Positions 47,144 through 61,885 of a stretch of 64,000 nt of DNA are shown here, piece after piece (position 1 is the stretch's first letter; each line of letters begins with the position of its first letter). The notes under the pieces are model-generated. The model made no database searches and had not been told where the DNA came from. It was given only the letters and a program-made list of their open reading frames with translations. Origin of the DNA: Felis catus (lineage: Eukaryota); assembly GCF_018350175.1 (NCBI RefSeq), contig NC_058368.1, positions 25,236,001-25,300,000 of the forward strand. Direction: 5' to 3'. The position numbers and the translations under genes were made by a program.

Positions 47144-48800
47144 GCTTCTCTGAGTTGAGGAAGAGGATAGCGCTGCTCTTCCGCGAGGGCCACCTGGTGG
47201 GGGGAGGCGGGGATGACGAACGGAAGGCAGGAGCCGTTGTCTGGCCGGGTGTCACGTGCCCAAGGCTCCTGGGGCGGGGGCGGGGGGGGGGCCTCAGACC
47301 CTGCCGGGCTTCTTGGGGTCCTTGCTCTTGGCCGGCATGAAGGCGTAGAGCTCCTCGATGAGCATCTCCATCCGGGCGGTGACCTCGGTCACCGTGTCGA
47401 TGACCAGCTTCTGCTGCAGCTTCAGCGTCTTGTTCTCCCACAGGGCCTTGTTCTCCTCCTGGAAGACGCGGTGCTCCTCGCGCAGCGCGTGCAGGGCCCG
47501 GTTCTCCTCCCGCAGCAGCCGGTTCTCCTCGCGGAGGACCTGCAGGTTCTGGTTCTCCTCCCGCAGGGCCTGCAGCGCCTGGTGCGTCTCCCTCAGCAGC
47601 TCCAGGGACTGGCTCCCGTCAGCCAGGCCGGGGCCGGCCTTGCTCTCCTCGTCCCCGGAAGACCCGGACAGGTTGCTGACCATCTGGCGCAGGACGCGGA
47701 GGGTCTTGGAGTCGTCCTGGGGGGGCGAGGGCCCCTTAGACTCCTCGAAAGCGGAGGAGAGGCCTGTGCCCTGGTCCGGCAGCAGCCCGGGGCCGTGGAG
47801 CTCCTCGTGGGCCGAGGGGACCGCCGTGCTTTCCTCCCCGGGGCCCGCCTTCTCCTCCGCCGGGCCCCAGTAGGCCTTCCTCTGCTCCAGCCGCTGGCGC
47901 AGGGCCCTGTTCTCCTCCCTGAGGAGCTGCAGGCTGCTGTCCTCCTGGAGGCGGTGCATCTGCAGGGCCGCGTCCTTCGCCACCTCCAGGGCCGCGCTGG
48001 CCTTGTGCGGCAGCGGCGAGGCGGCCCTGCTCTCCTCCCGGCCCAGCGTGGCCTTGCGCTCCTCCCAGAAGACCTGCAGGATCCTGTTCTCCTTGCGGAG
48101 GGTCCTGTTCTCCTCGCGCAGCGCCCTGTTCTCCTCGCGCAGCGCCTTGTTCTCCTCCTGCAGCAGGTGCTCCTTGGCCAGCCGCTTGTGGTGCAGCTTG
48201 TGGTGGAAAGAGGACGACGGAGAGAAGTACAGTTCTCTGTACAGGCGGCAGTTTTCGTTCACCCAGCGCCCGTCCTGGAAGACGAACATCTCGTCGCTGA
48301 GCTGCACTCGCGGAGGGTTGTAATCCAGCTCGAGGTCCGCCTGCGAGGTGGGGCGCTCCATGGGGTCCAAGGGCACGGAGGAGAAGCGATTCAGCGGGTA
48401 GGAGTGCTGGCTGGTCGCTCTGCGGCTCAGCCTGGGCAGGGCGGCCTGCCTGGCGCAGCGCGGGCTGGGGTACAGGTTGTGGAGCCTCAGGAAAGGCTCG
48501 GCTGTGCCCCTCTGCGGGAGAGAGCGGGGAAGCCGAGAGTTAGTGAAGGAGCCGACGAGCCCGAGGCTGCTGGCCAGGTAAGAGGCCGGCTTACCCCCAC
48601 GAGACACTCCGTCCGATCGTCCGGCCGGGCCCCGGCGGACACGTTTGCATTTGGCTTCGCGGAGGCCTCGCAAGGAAATACAGCCGACCCCCTACTCGCA
48701 GCCGTTCTGGTCTGGAAAGTGACCGCGAACGCTGAATTCGCGAGTGCCAGACCATCGCCCCGGGTAGAAACGCAGGGTTCGGTTCCTGCCCGCCTCTAGT
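47100..48800. promoter_or_regulatory. CpG island over CBY2 exon 3 and its flanks
   Basis: Very GC-rich with dense CpG compared with the rest of the window. Confidence 0.8.
47294..48511 (-). CDS. CBY2: CBY2 coding exon 3, 405 aa plus stop: Chibby-like region and coiled-coil (L)REEN(R/K)xL repeats
   Basis: Part of the 459-aa ORF, from RGTAEPF through [25 protein letters not shown] to [31 protein letters not shown]. The acceptor tcactaac...ctctctcccgcag has a consensus branch point. The first 54 ORF codons are intronic. Confidence 0.95.
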
Positions 48801-50675: not shown

Positions 50676-50735
50676 TGAGATAACAATTGCAGACGTGTTT
50701 TTGAATGAGATAACAATTGCAGACGTGTTTTTGAA
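50676..50735 (+). repeat. Perfect tandem duplication, 30-bp unit x2
   Basis: tgagataacaattgcagacgtgtttttgaa occurs twice. Confidence 0.97.
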
Positions 50736-52575: not shown

Positions 52576-55500
52576 ACATTTAACACTAATCACTTAATAC
52601 CAGCAAATACTGAGTCAGGGTTCAGATTCCCCCAGTTGTCTTTATTTTCTGATCGGTTTCAATCAGAGATACGCGTCTTCATCCAACCGAACGTCCGAAA
52701 AGGAATCACTAGCCCTTTATCCTGTTTATCACTGTTCCGAGTATCCATGATGGCTGTTAAATCATCATATTCAGCTGCCTTTATTCTGCCTGGGCTCCCC
52801 CAGGAACTTCTGACTGCTCCCTCAGCAGAAATGCACTAAATAAAAAACCTTAATGTGTAGGTGGTGGATCCCTAGCTGTGCACAGTCTGGATATTTGGGC
52901 CCTTATCCCTGTGCATGCCGTCAGGTCCCTCTTACCCTCTGACCTTGGTTTTCACATCTGTGCAACGGGGATCAGTGACATCACCTCTTGGTCTAACTTT
53001 CCCTGGCCCAGTGATGGATCCGTGTTTGTTAATGGGCACCGCCATAGCCCCAGCTGTCCTTTTTACCAACCAACCTTAACATCTTGTCCCCTCCTTTAAA
53101 TGGCCAGCGCTTCCCACGCAGACCCTGTGCCTTCTCTGTTACACGCCCGCAGCACCCAATCCAGAAAATGTTGACAGACTAATAGGTCGCCATGACTTCC
53201 TTCCCCGGGAAACCAAATCCTCCTCTCATGACTGAGTCCTGTATCTTCCCTCCTATTCCCAGACAGAATCAAGGAGGAGGTCAAGGCCAGTGTTGCCTCA
53301 TGGCCTACTATCTTAGATACAACACAAAAACGTTTAACAACGTTTAATAGTCATGTATTTACTTTAATGGCGATTGGAAGAACATACCTATTTTATCAAA
53401 CTCACAATCCTATGGATAGTACTAAGATGAGGCTAAAGCAAGTCAGCACCTTCCCCTGCAAGTGAGAAGATTTGAGGAAAAATACCAAATATGCAGGCAT
53501 TTCAGAGACGCCAAGAACCCTGATTAAACTTTGAGAAAACGTTAAGACCAAACAAATTCTTTCTTCCCCAATTCCAGTCAGACCTAGCTGGATTTAGTCC
53601 GTAAAGAAAGGCTCCCTCTTGGCCTTGTGAAAACAAGGTCACCTCGCCCTAAATATATGTCTACTCTGAATGTTCTTGTAACAATTCTTCATCCACATTT
53701 ATGTTGATTAATCAGCTAACATTAATCGGGAATCTAGTCTCAGACCCCACCCGCCTCCAAGGAACTTCCAGTCAGTTTGAAAATGCAGTGAATAGTACCA
53801 ACCATCGCTGGGTGCAAATGAGGGCAGTCAAAGAGGAGCATACGTTAATGCAGGCTGTAAGATGTGGGGATCAAGGGACCGGGTGTCACAAAACCCAAAA
53901 AGAGTCCCGGCTCGACGCCGTCTGGGTGCGTGACCTGTACAAAATCGTTTCACTTCTGTGCCGACATTTCCATATCCAGAAAGTGTGGATGCTAACACGA
54001 TTCAGAGCCACGCTGGGTTTCTACAATGACCAGCTGTAGAGGGTGCCATTCACCACTGTTGTTGCCATGCACAACCTGTACCCCCATCCACGGCAACCTC
54101 GCTGACATCTGACCTGTTTCAGGGAGTTTGTTTGTAGAGTTCAGCAATGAAGGGACAACGTGTGACATTTTCTTTGTTTATAGAGAGCGACCGAGATGAT
54201 GACTGCAAATTGAAAAAGACAAGTTGCTTAGATTTCCTTAGCAGAGGATTTCTAGAACAAGGAAAAGGAAATAGCACTTACTGAATGAGTATTATGTGAG
54301 GATAGGCTAGTTGAGTTCCATATTCATGTGTAATATCTTACAGAGAAGAGCTATCATGTTTTATATAAAATCACAGAGCCAGCAAGGGGCAAGAGGCAGG
54401 GTTTAAAACAGGATATCTGACTCCAAACCACATACTTATTCTTGCTGTTCACAGGGCCCAGATGTTTTACTTCGCATGTGTTGGTATCATTACTGTGCTG
54501 AGCTTCTCTTCTGCCCTGTCCCATTTCCCGCCCCAGAGAGATAAATTACAGTTCTCTGAGGGCAGTGGCCTATCCCCCTCCCCTTTTTTTTTTGACATGC
54601 CTAGACATGGAAACTAGAACAGCACGCTTCCCTTACAGCGGAGGTATAATGAGTCCTTGCGGGTGAACTAATCCACCGAAATGCACTGAAAAGCAAGAAG
54701 GCGATCAGATTGAACCCCATGAACCTGTCGTCACTTTCGGCCTGCCAAAGTGGTGATTTCATTTGTCTTTGTATAGTTAGCGTCTTTGGTGAAGCCCTAT
54801 GTTCATTTCGATTCATATTTGTAAACTGCACAGCTGTGACCGTGCGATGGCCAATCTCTAGCAGTGGGGTTTTCCCCTGTGAATTCCGCAAAACCCCAGG
54901 TCAATCCGTGTAGCCCTTAAAGGGGGCTGGCCCCTGCACGTGAGCATGCTGGTTTTCCTATCACCATCTTGAACATATAATCCAATGAGGGTAGCGGCCC
55001 CGAATTCCCAGTGGCTTTGGGCTCAAAAGTCCCATCTTTGAGTGCTCTTGAGAGAGTCACTTAGCTTCTCTGAATGTCACCTCTAAAATGAACCTAAACG
55101 TAACTGCTCTGCCTGCTTCCTGGTGTGAAAGGCCAAGAAGTGGGAGACAAGCAGTCATAAGGACCAAACACGTGGCCCGTTATGCTGGTGAGGCTTGAAT
55201 GTTCCTGGCCTAAAGCACTATAGCAAATGCTGAATGTATTTCTTTACCAAAGTTTGGGCTTTCCTAGGAGCGAGCGTCTGAGCTAAGCAAACACAGGAGG
55301 AACAAAACCCCAGGATGACTCAGCCCATGTTTGAAGCCAGCCCCTTCTCAGTAGGTCTCCACAGCCAGGGGTATCACTAGTTGGGTATCATGGACGACAC
55401 TGATCTGCGCTTGATGTCCTTGAGGTCCGCCGAGAGGTCTGGGCCTTTCAGAACTCTGAAAGGCTCTTCTAAGTCTGGGAGGTAGAGCCTATGGCAGCAT

Positions 55501-59290: not shown

Positions 59291-60104
59291 TGCCCACTGA
59301 TGATCGATCCTGTCCCTACACATCCCCGTATGTAGCTTTCAGGTAGTTACCTCTGCACCGGATTCCTCCACCCTACATTTCAGCCCCCCTGGTTGCACCG
59401 CCATCATCTTCCAACAGGCCCTCAGGTGACTCTGAAGAAGTAAGGCCGCCCCCTTTGTGACATAGCAGCAGTGGAAACAATCCAGTCAGGAGAACCCCAC
59501 CGAGGAAATGGCTGCTTAGCAGGAGGAGACCTCAGACTCTCCGGCCTGCCAACGCTTCACCCATTCATTGGCCTCCGGCCTGAGTCCCCCTTCCACTCTA
59601 CCTTTGGTGTGCGGCAGGCCCCGAATCTCTTGACATCTCCAAAGCACCATGTACCTTTTGGCCCGCGTCCTAGCTTTTCTGCTTAACGGATTCGGTCGTG
59701 TGAATTTGGTTCCAGGTCCCAGTGCTCGTTCTCGTTCTCCCCCACCCCACCCGACCCCTCAGAATTCCAGGGTGGATGTACAACAGCAAGCCCCAAAAGA
59801 TCTAAGTCTGAGAAGAAGGGCTTATTCCAGAGCGTCATGGAAACTTTAAGTGTTGTGATGACTGGAAGGTCTTACCAGGTCGCCAAACCCGCCTTCCTCA
59901 TTTGAGGGATGACAAGCCCAAGGCCCAGAGTGGCTAAGCAACCGCCCCCGCCCTCCCCGCCGCCACTGCCCGGCACACGGCTGGTTGGCAGCTTGAATCT
60001 GAGGCCTTGACTATGTTGCTTATGCTACCTATCTTGCCAAAGTTTGGAAAGCGGTGAGTTGTTCTGGCTACAACTAAGTTACACCCTTCTGTGAATATCC
60101 CTAC

Positions 60105-60185
60105 CTGAGGGAGAACCACGTTGATGGGAATTTCTAGGCTTTCAGACCTGGTATCTCTTTTTCTTGTAAAATTTGGCCTTGAGTG
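60105..60185 (-). CDS. CBY2: CBY2 coding exon 2, 81 nt, phase 0-0
   Basis: Translates to [27 protein letters not shown]. It is preceded by a pyrimidine tract and acceptor (ttttctcttttccacag) and followed by the donor CAG|GTAGGG. Confidence 0.93.
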
Positions 60186-60371
60186 CTGTGGAAAAGAGAA
60201 AATAAGACAATTTCTGCTTCCTAGCCCGTCCTCTGAGCCTCAGTTGCTCACCTGAAAAACAAGAGACTTTCTACTCACTTAGCCCCTCTCGTCACTTATG
60301 TACATTATGAAAATCTGAGTCTGAAAGCATATGAAGATGGCATCTGATGAGATGTGATTTTAAGAAATTAA

Positions 60372-60594
60372 GGGGCGCCTGGGTGGCGCAGTCGGTTGAG
60401 CGTCCGACTTCAGCCAGGTCACGATCTCGCGGTCCGTGAGTTCGAGCCCCGCGGCGGGCTCTGGGCTGACGGCTCGGAGCCTGGAGCCTGTGTCCGATTC
60501 TGTGTCTCCCTCTCTCTCTGCCCCTCCCCCGTTCATGCTCTGTCTCTCTCTGTCCCAAAAATAAAGAAATGCTTTAAAAAAAAAAAAAAAAGAA
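60372..60594 (+). mobile_element. Young felid Can-SINE in CBY2 intron 1, antisense to the gene
   Basis: CpG-rich copy; TSD aagaaatt(a/g)ag. Confidence 0.95.
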
Positions 60595-60708
60595 AAGAAA
60601 TTGAGACACATTGGGGTCAAGGGCCGCCAAAAAGTCTTAGGAGCAGAGATGCCCAAACCTATTACCTTTGCTAAGATTATTACTTCCACCTCAAGTAAAA
60701 AGCCATAG

Positions 60709-60783
60709 CAGTGTTAGGTGCCGGGTATAGGTCCTGTGCAGGAGTTGGTCACCAAAACACTCAGAACATTCCAGAGGTGACAT
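60709..60783 (-). CDS. CBY2: CBY2 (SPERT) coding exon 1, 25 codons; the splice donor is non-canonical (CT) in this sequence
   Basis: The reverse complement translates to [25 protein letters not shown], matching the recalled N-terminus of mammalian CBY2/SPERT. ATG is at 60783-60781. The next bases are CTATGG, not GT. Confidence 0.88.
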
Positions 60784-61084
60784 CACAAAACAATATGGTG
60801 TTTTTAAGGGCTCATGGTCTCTCTGAGTATCACAGGTGGGAATGAGGCATCTAACAGTCAGAAGGAGCTCACCCTGGTTGTGTCCAGCTTACTGATCAAG
60901 GTGAATGTGACACACAATAATCCAAACGCCAGCCCCCTGTTTGGTCATCCTATTTACCTCCCCACTGCCCAGATGGGCCGAGAGCCCTATCCTCTCTCTA
61001 AAGGTAGCATCTCTACTTGGAGTTGTATCACTCAAGAAGGAAGACACCAAAACTGAACTCATTCCAGACCAAAGGAAGATATGT

Positions 61085-61885
61085 AGCCTGAGATATTTTC
61101 TGCCACCAACCAATTCTCCAATTCTTTGAGGCCAACTGGCTGTCCTATATTCAATTCAATTCTGACACGTTCTACCTGGAGTTGGTGTCGGGTCACCTAA
61201 GTTGAAAGGCTCAGTCCCACAAGACAGCCCCCACTTCAGACACCAGTTGTAACTCCCAGGCCACCAGTGTTTCTGACTGACCAGCTATGAATTGGGGGTT
61301 CCCACAACCCCCCCCCCGCCTCAGCTTTAGTAATCTGCCAGGATAGCTAACAGAACTCAGGAAAACACTTTATTTACCATTAGTTTTATTATAAAAGATA
61401 CAGCTCAGGAATAGCCAAATGGAAGATGCTTAGGGCAAGGTATGGGGGGAGAAGGACACGGAGCTTCCATACCCTTGCAGAGGACATCACCCTCCCAGCT
61501 CCTCCGTGTGTTCACCAACGCAGAAGCTCTCCTAACCCTATCGTTTAAGGGTTTGTATAGAGGATTCATTACCTGGCAGTGGTTGATTAAGTCGTTGGCC
61601 TTTGGTGATTGAAAATTTCCATCCCAACCCCTCCCTTTCCCGGGGGTAGAGGGATGCTGAGAGTTACAACCCTCCAATCACATGATTGCACATGGTCGAT
61701 TCCTCTGGCAGTGTCCATCCTGAAGCCATCTAAGGGCCACCAAGAGTCCCTTCATTACCATAAACTCAGATGTGTCTTAGACAGGCACCTTATGAATAAT
61801 AAAAGGCACTTCTACCACTCGGGAAATTCCCAGGGTTTTAGGACCTCTGTGCCAGGAACTGGGAACAAAACCCAAGACCACAGTG
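61085..61885 (-). mobile_element. MER21-like LTR about 300 bp upstream of the CBY2 ATG, in the same orientation as the gene
   Basis: Minus strand reads gttcctggcacaga...cctaaaaccctgggaattt...cttcaggatgg...aatcaccaaaggccaacgacttaatcaacc...ggagagcttc. Confidence 0.75.

What the first reader, a model, noticed from the sequence alone, without database searches (positions are those of the whole stretch)
60660..60783. CBY2 exon-1 splice donor reads CT, not GT, so the canonical isoform looks broken
Seen: after the 25 conserved codons (…CTA ACA CTG) the minus strand continues CTATGG, where a phase-0 GT donor is needed to join exon 2. Position 60708 is C on the minus strand. Read-through gives LWLFT then TGA at 60693-60691, a 30-aa peptide. 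GT sites inside exon 1 are not phase 0. Downstream GTs (60689, 60683, and the good AAAG|GTAATA at 60665) all lie past the stop. Exons 2 and 3 are intact with canonical sites. Inference: this is a lineage- or individual-specific +1G>C loss of the long isoform of a spermatid protein, a switch to another first exon or an internal ATG (48361, 355 aa), or an assembly error.
Basis: partly seen in the sequence, partly recalled or inferred. Interest (0 to 1): 0.7.

Follow-up and report, generated by a model that had tools for sequence, protein, structure and literature searches.

The report
Broken splice donor in cat CBY2
In this cat genome one letter change breaks the splice signal after the first exon of the sperm-cell gene CBY2, but the gene has a second, intact first exon, so this is an ordinary loss of some protein forms rather than loss of the gene.

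Summary
In detail: base 60708 (minus strand) is C, and exon 1 reads through to a stop after 30 codons. The change is derived. All 11 unspliced read-through proteins from other mammals have Val-Trp there (a GT donor); the window has Leu-Trp. The window's exons match domestic-cat CBY2 proteins exactly. An assembly error is unlikely, because one public run holds all 187 sampled words of the region. No plausible nearby donor keeps exon 1 in frame with exon 2, so the exon-1 forms (457 and 430 aa) are probably lost on this allele. It gives an intact 424-aa protein, RefSeq cat isoform X1. The gene is strongly expressed in adult cat testis, and mouse knockouts are fertile. Whether C is fixed or segregating is open: RefSeq still lists the 457-aa cat model. 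Verdict: a real but ordinary splice-donor variant in a dispensable gene with several first exons; I found it in no paper searched. Low interest.

The parts
60709..60783 (-). CBY2 coding exon 1 (exon A), 25 codons; codon 21 is Arg where most mammals have Trp
   Evidence: (100% to XP_003980448.3 residues 1-25)
60707..60708 (-). Altered splice donor of intron 1: CT in place of GT; 60708 is the +1 base
   Evidence: orthologous read-through proteins give Val (GTN) in 11 of 11
60691..60783 (-). Read-through ORF of 30 codons ending at TGA 60693-60691; would act as an upstream ORF
   Evidence: the exact peptide is not in the protein collection
60660..60668 (-). Best nearby candidate cryptic donor AAG|GTAATA (+1 at 60665), 25 nt past the stop; use not shown
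   Evidence: 6 of 9 matches to the textbook donor consensus, recalled
60105..60185 (-). Exon 2, 27 codons, canonical AG and GT; a cassette exon in many mammals
59351..59431 (-). Exon B: alternative first exon, coding part 59407-59351 (19 codons), intact donor GAG|GTAACT; also has an acceptor at 59431 that is used as an internal exon in meerkat and gibbon models
   Evidence: N-terminus identical to XP_006927362.2; RefSeq transcripts start at about 59410-59457
54114..54251 (-). Exon C (acceptor candidates 54251 and 54202, donor CAG|GTCAGA); its ATG at 54168 is out of frame in the window by one extra base compared with leopard cat and jaguarundi models
47294..48511 (-). Exon 3, 405 codons plus stop; Chibby domain and coiled-coil repeats; intact
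48359..48361 (-). Internal ATG giving a 355-aa form that keeps most of the Chibby domain

Best explanation
A real germ-line +1G>C change at the intron-1 donor of the domestic-cat CBY2 (SPERT) gene. SHOWN: the base is C, the ancestral base was G, and no plausible nearby donor restores the frame to exon 2. INFERRED from standard U2 splicing: U1 snRNP no longer uses this site. Messages from the exon-1 promoter then keep intron 1 or use a cryptic donor such as 60665. They make a 30-codon upstream peptide, are prone to nonsense-mediated decay if exon 2 is included, and can at best restart at ATG 48361 (355 aa). The exon-1 forms (457 aa; 430 aa without exon 2) are lost on this allele. SHOWN: exon B and exon 3 give an intact 424-aa frame with the whole Chibby domain. 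INFERRED: that form carries on the gene's role and selection against the change is weak. Given that it is real, I put a segregating allele at about 55% and fixation in the domestic cat or Felis at about 45%.
For:: sequence, phases and donor/acceptor enumeration; the 9 in-frame combinations all need a weak donor (2-5 of 9 consensus matches) plus a shifted exon-3 acceptor, and none reaches exon 2 or exon B. Val-Trp in 11 of 11 orthologous read-through proteins; run X1 holds 187 of 187 sampled words; if words are sampled at random the chance that none spans 60708 is 0.029; X4, from another study and not marked as a possible source, misses only 1-2 words, and three or more words span the site with chance 0.66; exon B gives RefSeq cat X1; exon-B starts occur in 22 of 120 listed mammalian homologues; human isoform 2 positions Pro83 and Arg46 fit a 16-residue exon-B start (my mapping); about 294-fold higher in adult than early juvenile cat testis. 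Cby2-null male mice fertile; a common human truncating SNP; 140-158 donor SNVs among cats.
Against: No read was examined at 60708 and no spliced RNA was seen; one search listed no run that is recognisably testis RNA. RefSeq keeps a 457-aa exon 1-2-3 cat model across annotation releases, so either those reference genomes read GT or the model crosses a non-consensus site; I could not tell which. The 14 DNA-like runs are the best-ranked holders and so are biased towards this haplotype, and 7 rows may be the source. All 11 read-through proteins have Trp21, so none is from a small cat, and the state in other felids is not shown. Exons 1 and 2 are unchanged at protein level against lynx and leopard cat, so no decay is visible yet.
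Confidence: 0.78

Rival explanations
1. Assembly or consensus error: the animal has GT and the gene is normal.
For: RefSeq lists the 457-aa cat isoform; all 8 other felid species in the cluster listings have a model using the exon-1 donor; reads were not examined.
Against: X1 holds all 187 sampled words, which under this reading needs no sampled word to span the site (0.029); 14 runs from 7 studies hold 98% or more. The site is not in a homopolymer or repeat.
Confidence: 0.07
2. The CT donor is still used (leaky CT-AG splicing, or the equivalent GC..CA or TA..GC placement), so the 457-aa form is made from this allele.
For: Positions -3 to +6 otherwise match the consensus at 5 of 9; minor non-canonical sites do have RNA support in some animals (PMC7072748, passages); the RefSeq model persists.
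Against: None of the three equivalent placements is GT-AG, GC-AG or AT-AC (sequence). PMC7072748 reports the 5' site as less flexible than the 3' site and has 0 mentions of CT-AG. Loss of splicing with +1G changes is textbook knowledge (recalled). No exon 1-exon 3 form (430 aa) appears among the listed cat models, while lion, snow leopard and lynx have one (only 15 of 46 members are listed per call).
Confidence: 0.06
3. The whole gene is decaying in the cat lineage and the donor change is one of several signs of lost constraint.
For: Nine amino-acid changes on the cat branch against none in leopard cat (relative-rate p 0.003), three of them at conserved sites (Met309 in 116 of 120 homologues, Asp171 in 106, Leu168 in 104); 22 coding SNPs among cats; knockouts fertile in mice.
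Against: No stop or frameshift in exon B or exon 3; strong adult testis expression; all 9 changes are A/T to G/C, which GC-biased gene conversion explains without loss of function; lynx shows the same bias (4 of 4).
Confidence: 0.08

Closest known systems
Mammalian CBY2/SPERT (Chibby family, Pfam PF14645); cat RefSeq XP_003980448.3 (457 aa) and XP_006927362.2 (424 aa)
   Same: Exons 1, 2, B and 3 of the window are identical in protein to these records; the Chibby domain is found in the 457-, 424- and 355-aa forms.
   Different: The window cannot splice exon 1 through a canonical donor, so the 457-aa record is not encoded by canonical splicing here.
SNPs at conserved splice dinucleotides (sdSNPs; Shimada et al. 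2010, PMC2882926; abstract and outline seen) and cat splice-donor SNVs (PMC8009874 Table 4; passages)
   Same: A single-base change at a donor dinucleotide of an exon that has alternatives; 212 validated human cases and 140-158 cat donor SNVs are reported.
   Different: That paper finds such SNPs enriched at non-conserved exons, whereas this exon is conserved across placental mammals and a wombat model; polymorphism is not shown here.
Human CBY2 isoform 2 (Q8NA61-2, NM_001286342; PMC8929693, passages)
   Same: A shorter-N-terminus isoform expressed on its own in a human tissue; residue numbers fit a start in exon B (my mapping with the gibbon exon-B peptide).
   Different: In humans it coexists with isoform 1; on this cat allele the exon-B form would be the longest form left.

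Membership tests
CBY2/SPERT orthologue (Chibby family) | Chibby domain PF14645 above the curated cut-off | tested here: met
   43-47 bits against a cut-off of 24.8 in all 3 of 3 forms
CBY2/SPERT orthologue (Chibby family) | Best matches are annotated CBY2 proteins with the same exon blocks | tested here: met
   100% to Felis catus CBY2 over exon 3 and over exons 1, 2 and B
CBY2/SPERT orthologue (Chibby family) | Conserved neighbours (ZC3H13, SIAH3) | not tested
   order seen only in a cat gene list; neighbours were not mapped in the window
Splice-donor loss variant (sdSNP class) | Change at +1 or +2 of a donor that is GT in orthologues | tested here: met
   Leu-Trp against Val-Trp in 11 of 11
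Splice-donor loss variant (sdSNP class) | Allele present in the DNA of real individuals | tested here: inconclusive
   word shares favour it; no base-level read view
Splice-donor loss variant (sdSNP class) | Both alleles segregate in the species | not tested
   no cat genotypes at the base were obtained; supplement searches for the position found nothing
Splice-donor loss variant (sdSNP class) | The junction is lost in RNA | not tested
   no testis junction data obtained
Unitary pseudogene / gene loss | Inactivating change in every coding isoform | tested here: not met
   exon B to exon 3 is open for 424 aa with canonical sites
Unitary pseudogene / gene loss | Loss of expression | tested here: not met
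   supplement rows of PMC8611880: baseMean about 1460, 294-fold up in adult testis; gene-level, other cats
Natural non-canonical intron (GC-AG or U12-type) | GC donor in frame with an AG acceptor, or a U12 5' motif, conserved in orthologues | tested here: not met
   GC at 60709 is phase 2 and out of frame with exon 2; no U12 motif (consensus recalled); orthologues have GT

The most novel reading that the evidence does not exclude
The C is fixed in the domestic cat or all Felis and completes a stepwise retirement of the ancestral first exon. Small cats first changed a near-invariant Trp21 to Arg (7 of 7 Felinae rows; Trp in 92 of 100 rows overall). The cat line then lost the donor and moved wholly to the exon-B protein, while a burst of GC-biased amino-acid changes hit exons B and 3. 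RefSeq's 457-aa cat isoform would then be a phantom, and cat hybrids with leopard cat or other felids would give a natural test of what the conserved 52-residue N-terminus does in spermatids.
Probability: 0.3. Interest if true: 0.38.

Novelty: new member of a known kind. Interest (0 to 1): 0.2.

Why it matters
Modest. It would correct or qualify the cat annotation (a 457-aa isoform that this haplotype cannot splice canonically). It adds a natural isoform-specific knockout of a conserved N-terminus in a spermatid protein; cats are studied for sperm defects and hybrid sterility. It is unlikely to explain a phenotype, since whole-gene knockouts are fertile in mice (PMC9226692) and an intact isoform remains.

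Tried and rejected
No whole genome is held for this window. An exact look-up of the 30-aa read-through peptide found nothing. A 45-aa search among proteins of 24-79 aa found 1 of 1 candidates, a spliced whale model. An exon-1 DNA pattern found 0 matches in metagenome contigs; this is uninformative. Related-locus searches did not run because the queries were too short. Small-share RNA runs X18-X20 and the unindexed single-cell runs X22-X24 were not used as evidence. I first took XP_023107417 for an exon 1-exon 3 form; rejected, its transcript starts in exon B. The second RefSeq transcript that starts in exon 1 (XM_019826714, about 14 nt before the ATG) cannot tell G from C, because exon C would break its frame either way. 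The low rank of the 457-aa model (X3) is not evidence of a broken donor: it also ranks after shorter forms in Panthera, where exon 1 is spliced. Unchanged exon 1-2 protein cannot date the change: too few sites. In-frame rescue through GC at 60709 or exonic GTs needs a shifted, weak exon-3 acceptor and was judged unlikely. Earlier scan notes: 6 look-ups, none on this gene.

Full report
Observation. On the minus strand 60783-60709 encodes 25 codons and is followed by CTATGG, so the +1 base of intron 1 (60708) is C. Read-through ends at TGA 60693-60691 after 30 codons. The five GTs inside the exon are phase 1 or 2, and the GTs at 60689, 60683 and 60665 lie beyond the stop. Exon 2 (60185-60105) and exon 3 (48511-47294, 405 codons) are intact with canonical sites.

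What gene and which animal. A search with exon 3 gave 163 proteins, of which 120 were listed, nearly all named CBY2/SPERT. Exons 1, 2 and 3 are identical to Felis catus XP_003980448.3 (457 aa), while eight other felids differ from the window at 7-13 residues of exon 3. The Chibby domain PF14645 passes its cut-off in the 457-, 424- and 355-aa forms. The coding span in the window is 13,490 nt against 13,495 in the Felis_catus_9.0 coordinates of a supplement row, so the window is not letter for letter that assembly.

The change is derived. A 45-aa query around exon 1 returned 89 proteins of 80 aa or more. Seven are unnamed open frames from unspliced contigs that run through the exon into the intron; their clusters added four more sequences. 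All 11 of 11, in 7 of 7 clusters, read Val-Trp at codons 26-27, where the window reads Leu-Trp, and the following residues stay alignable. Val means GTN, so the orthologous intron starts with GT and the window differs by one base. All 11 carry Trp21, whereas small cats carry Arg21, so none shows the state in a close relative. Gene models that use the exon-1 donor exist for lynx, leopard cat, puma, jaguarundi and four Panthera species, but a model is not a view of the base.

Real or an error. For 59330-61100, 187 words were sampled. X1 holds a share of 1.00 (187 of 187), four runs hold 0.99 (1-2 missing) and nine hold 0.98 (3-4 missing); these 14 come from seven studies, and 7 of the 24 rows may be the source of the DNA. 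If words are sampled at random, the chance that none spans 60708 is 0.029, that at most two do is 0.336, and that at most four do is 0.766. So C is probably in the reads of X1, and with about two chances in three also in X4, which is from another study and not marked as a source. These are the best-ranked holders, so they say nothing on allele frequency.

Fixed or segregating. For segregating: RefSeq has carried the exon 1-2-3 model through successive cat annotations ('Similar, change in UTR only', version .3), which is simplest if those references read GT. The locus is variable (22 coding SNPs), and 140-158 donor SNVs were called among cats sequenced on both platforms (PMC8009874 Table 4). 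For fixed: an exon 1-exon 3 form is common in mammals (37 of 120 listed proteins by a rough pattern count) and is listed for lion, snow leopard and lynx, but not among the listed models of cat, leopard cat or jaguarundi (only 15 of 46 cluster members are shown per call). The cat entry with a UniProtKB-type id is the 424-aa form. I cannot decide; about 55 to 45.

Consequence. Enumerating every GT or GC from 60783 to 60560 against five acceptors gave nine in-frame pairs. All need a weak donor (2-5 of 9 matches to the recalled consensus, against 7 for the three real donors) together with a shifted exon-3 acceptor; none reaches exon 2 or exon B. The best nearby GT is 60665 (6 of 9), 25 nt past the stop. 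By standard rules (recalled), a message spliced there and including exon 2 has a stop far upstream of its last junction and is a decay target. One that skips to exon 3 escapes decay but makes only the 30-mer, an overlapping 8-codon frame, and possibly the 355-aa form by re-initiation. These steps are inferred, not shown.

Exon B at 59407-59351 encodes 19 residues, has the donor GAG|GTAACT and joins exon 3 in frame for 424 aa. This is RefSeq cat isoform X1, XP_006927362.2, and three of five transcripts in the Felis_catus_9.0 annotation start there. Exon-B starts appear in 22 of 120 listed homologues, across carnivores, bats, whales, rodents and primates. Human isoform 2, expressed alone in vascular smooth muscle, has Pro83 and Arg46 (PMC8929693, passages). 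These numbers fit a 16-residue exon-B start (gibbon peptide; exon-3 residues 67 and 30), and Pro83 does not fit an exon-1 start; this mapping is mine. A further exon C near 54168 is frame-shifted in the window relative to leopard cat and jaguarundi models. The 355-aa form is in NCBI on a contig of the same length as the cat records.

Does it matter to the animal. SPERT is about 294-fold higher in adult than in early juvenile cat testis, baseMean about 1460 (PMC8611880 supplement rows); this is gene-level. Male mice with a 10.2-kb Cby2 deletion had litters of 8.7 against 8.2 for wild type (PMC9226692, passages). A truncating SNP is common in people. So weak selection on one first exon is expected.

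Side result. Against a nine-species felid consensus the cat has 7 changes in exon 3, plus 2 in exon B against the other felid models, and the leopard cat has none (relative-rate p 0.003). All nine are A/T to G/C by their single-base paths, where 0.275 each is expected from a plain count of possible changes; lynx shows 4 of 4. This points to GC-biased gene conversion and warns against reading the excess as lost function. It is inferred from proteins, without DNA of other felids. The donor change itself (G to C) is not of that class.

Literature. I found no mention of this variant in searches for CBY2/SPERT/nurit/chibby, SPERT with cat, testis and splice, CBY2 with Felis catus (two papers read as passages, gene lists only), SPERT with domestic cat and the accessions. 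Supplement searches by symbol or position found nothing on it (14 of 16 files of PMC7581003 searched, one of them cut, one further file too large; PMC8662614 supplement unreadable). The library lacks most subscription papers. The class is well known: PMC2882926 (abstract and outline) and PMC7072748 (passages). The TOGA2 preprint (passages) added nothing specific.

Verdict. Observation confirmed; interpretation partly supported. Most likely a real +1G>C donor change that removes the exon-1 isoforms on this allele while an intact, conserved exon-B isoform remains (0.78). Rivals: whole-gene decay 0.08, assembly error 0.07, tolerated CT donor 0.06. New member of a known kind; interest 0.2. If fixed in Felis it would be a tidy lineage-specific first-exon switch (probability 0.3, interest 0.38).

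Noticed in passing
window 48511-47294 and 59407-59351 (minus): Nine cat-branch amino-acid changes, all A/T to G/C by single-base path; leopard cat has none, lynx 4 of 4 the same way; exon 3 has GC3 of 0.96. Looks like GC-biased gene conversion.
   Followed up: partly
window 60723-60721 (minus): Codon 21 of exon 1 is Arg (CGG) in all 7 Felinae rows, where 92 of 100 rows have Trp; Panthera keeps Trp.
   Followed up: partly
window about 48241-48230 (minus): Inside the Chibby domain felids read YREL where most mammals read QSP (3 felid rows of 120; hyaena, meerkat, panda, otter and dog keep the short form).
   Followed up: partly
window 54168-54114 (minus): Exon C: one extra base against leopard cat and jaguarundi models removes their 18-residue N-terminus (423-aa form) in the window.
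   Followed up: partly
window about 60590-60370 (minus): A carnivore SINE-like insertion (identification recalled) lies in the short intron 1, about 120 nt past the altered donor.
   Followed up: no
window 60268-60252 (minus): A short stretch ending at a strong donor CAG|GTGAGC (+1 at 60251) resembles the six-residue insertion KSLVFQ between exons 1 and 2 of the Iberian lynx model VFV37985.1.
   Followed up: no
window 50676-50735: A perfect two-copy 30-bp tandem duplication in the long intron.
   Followed up: no
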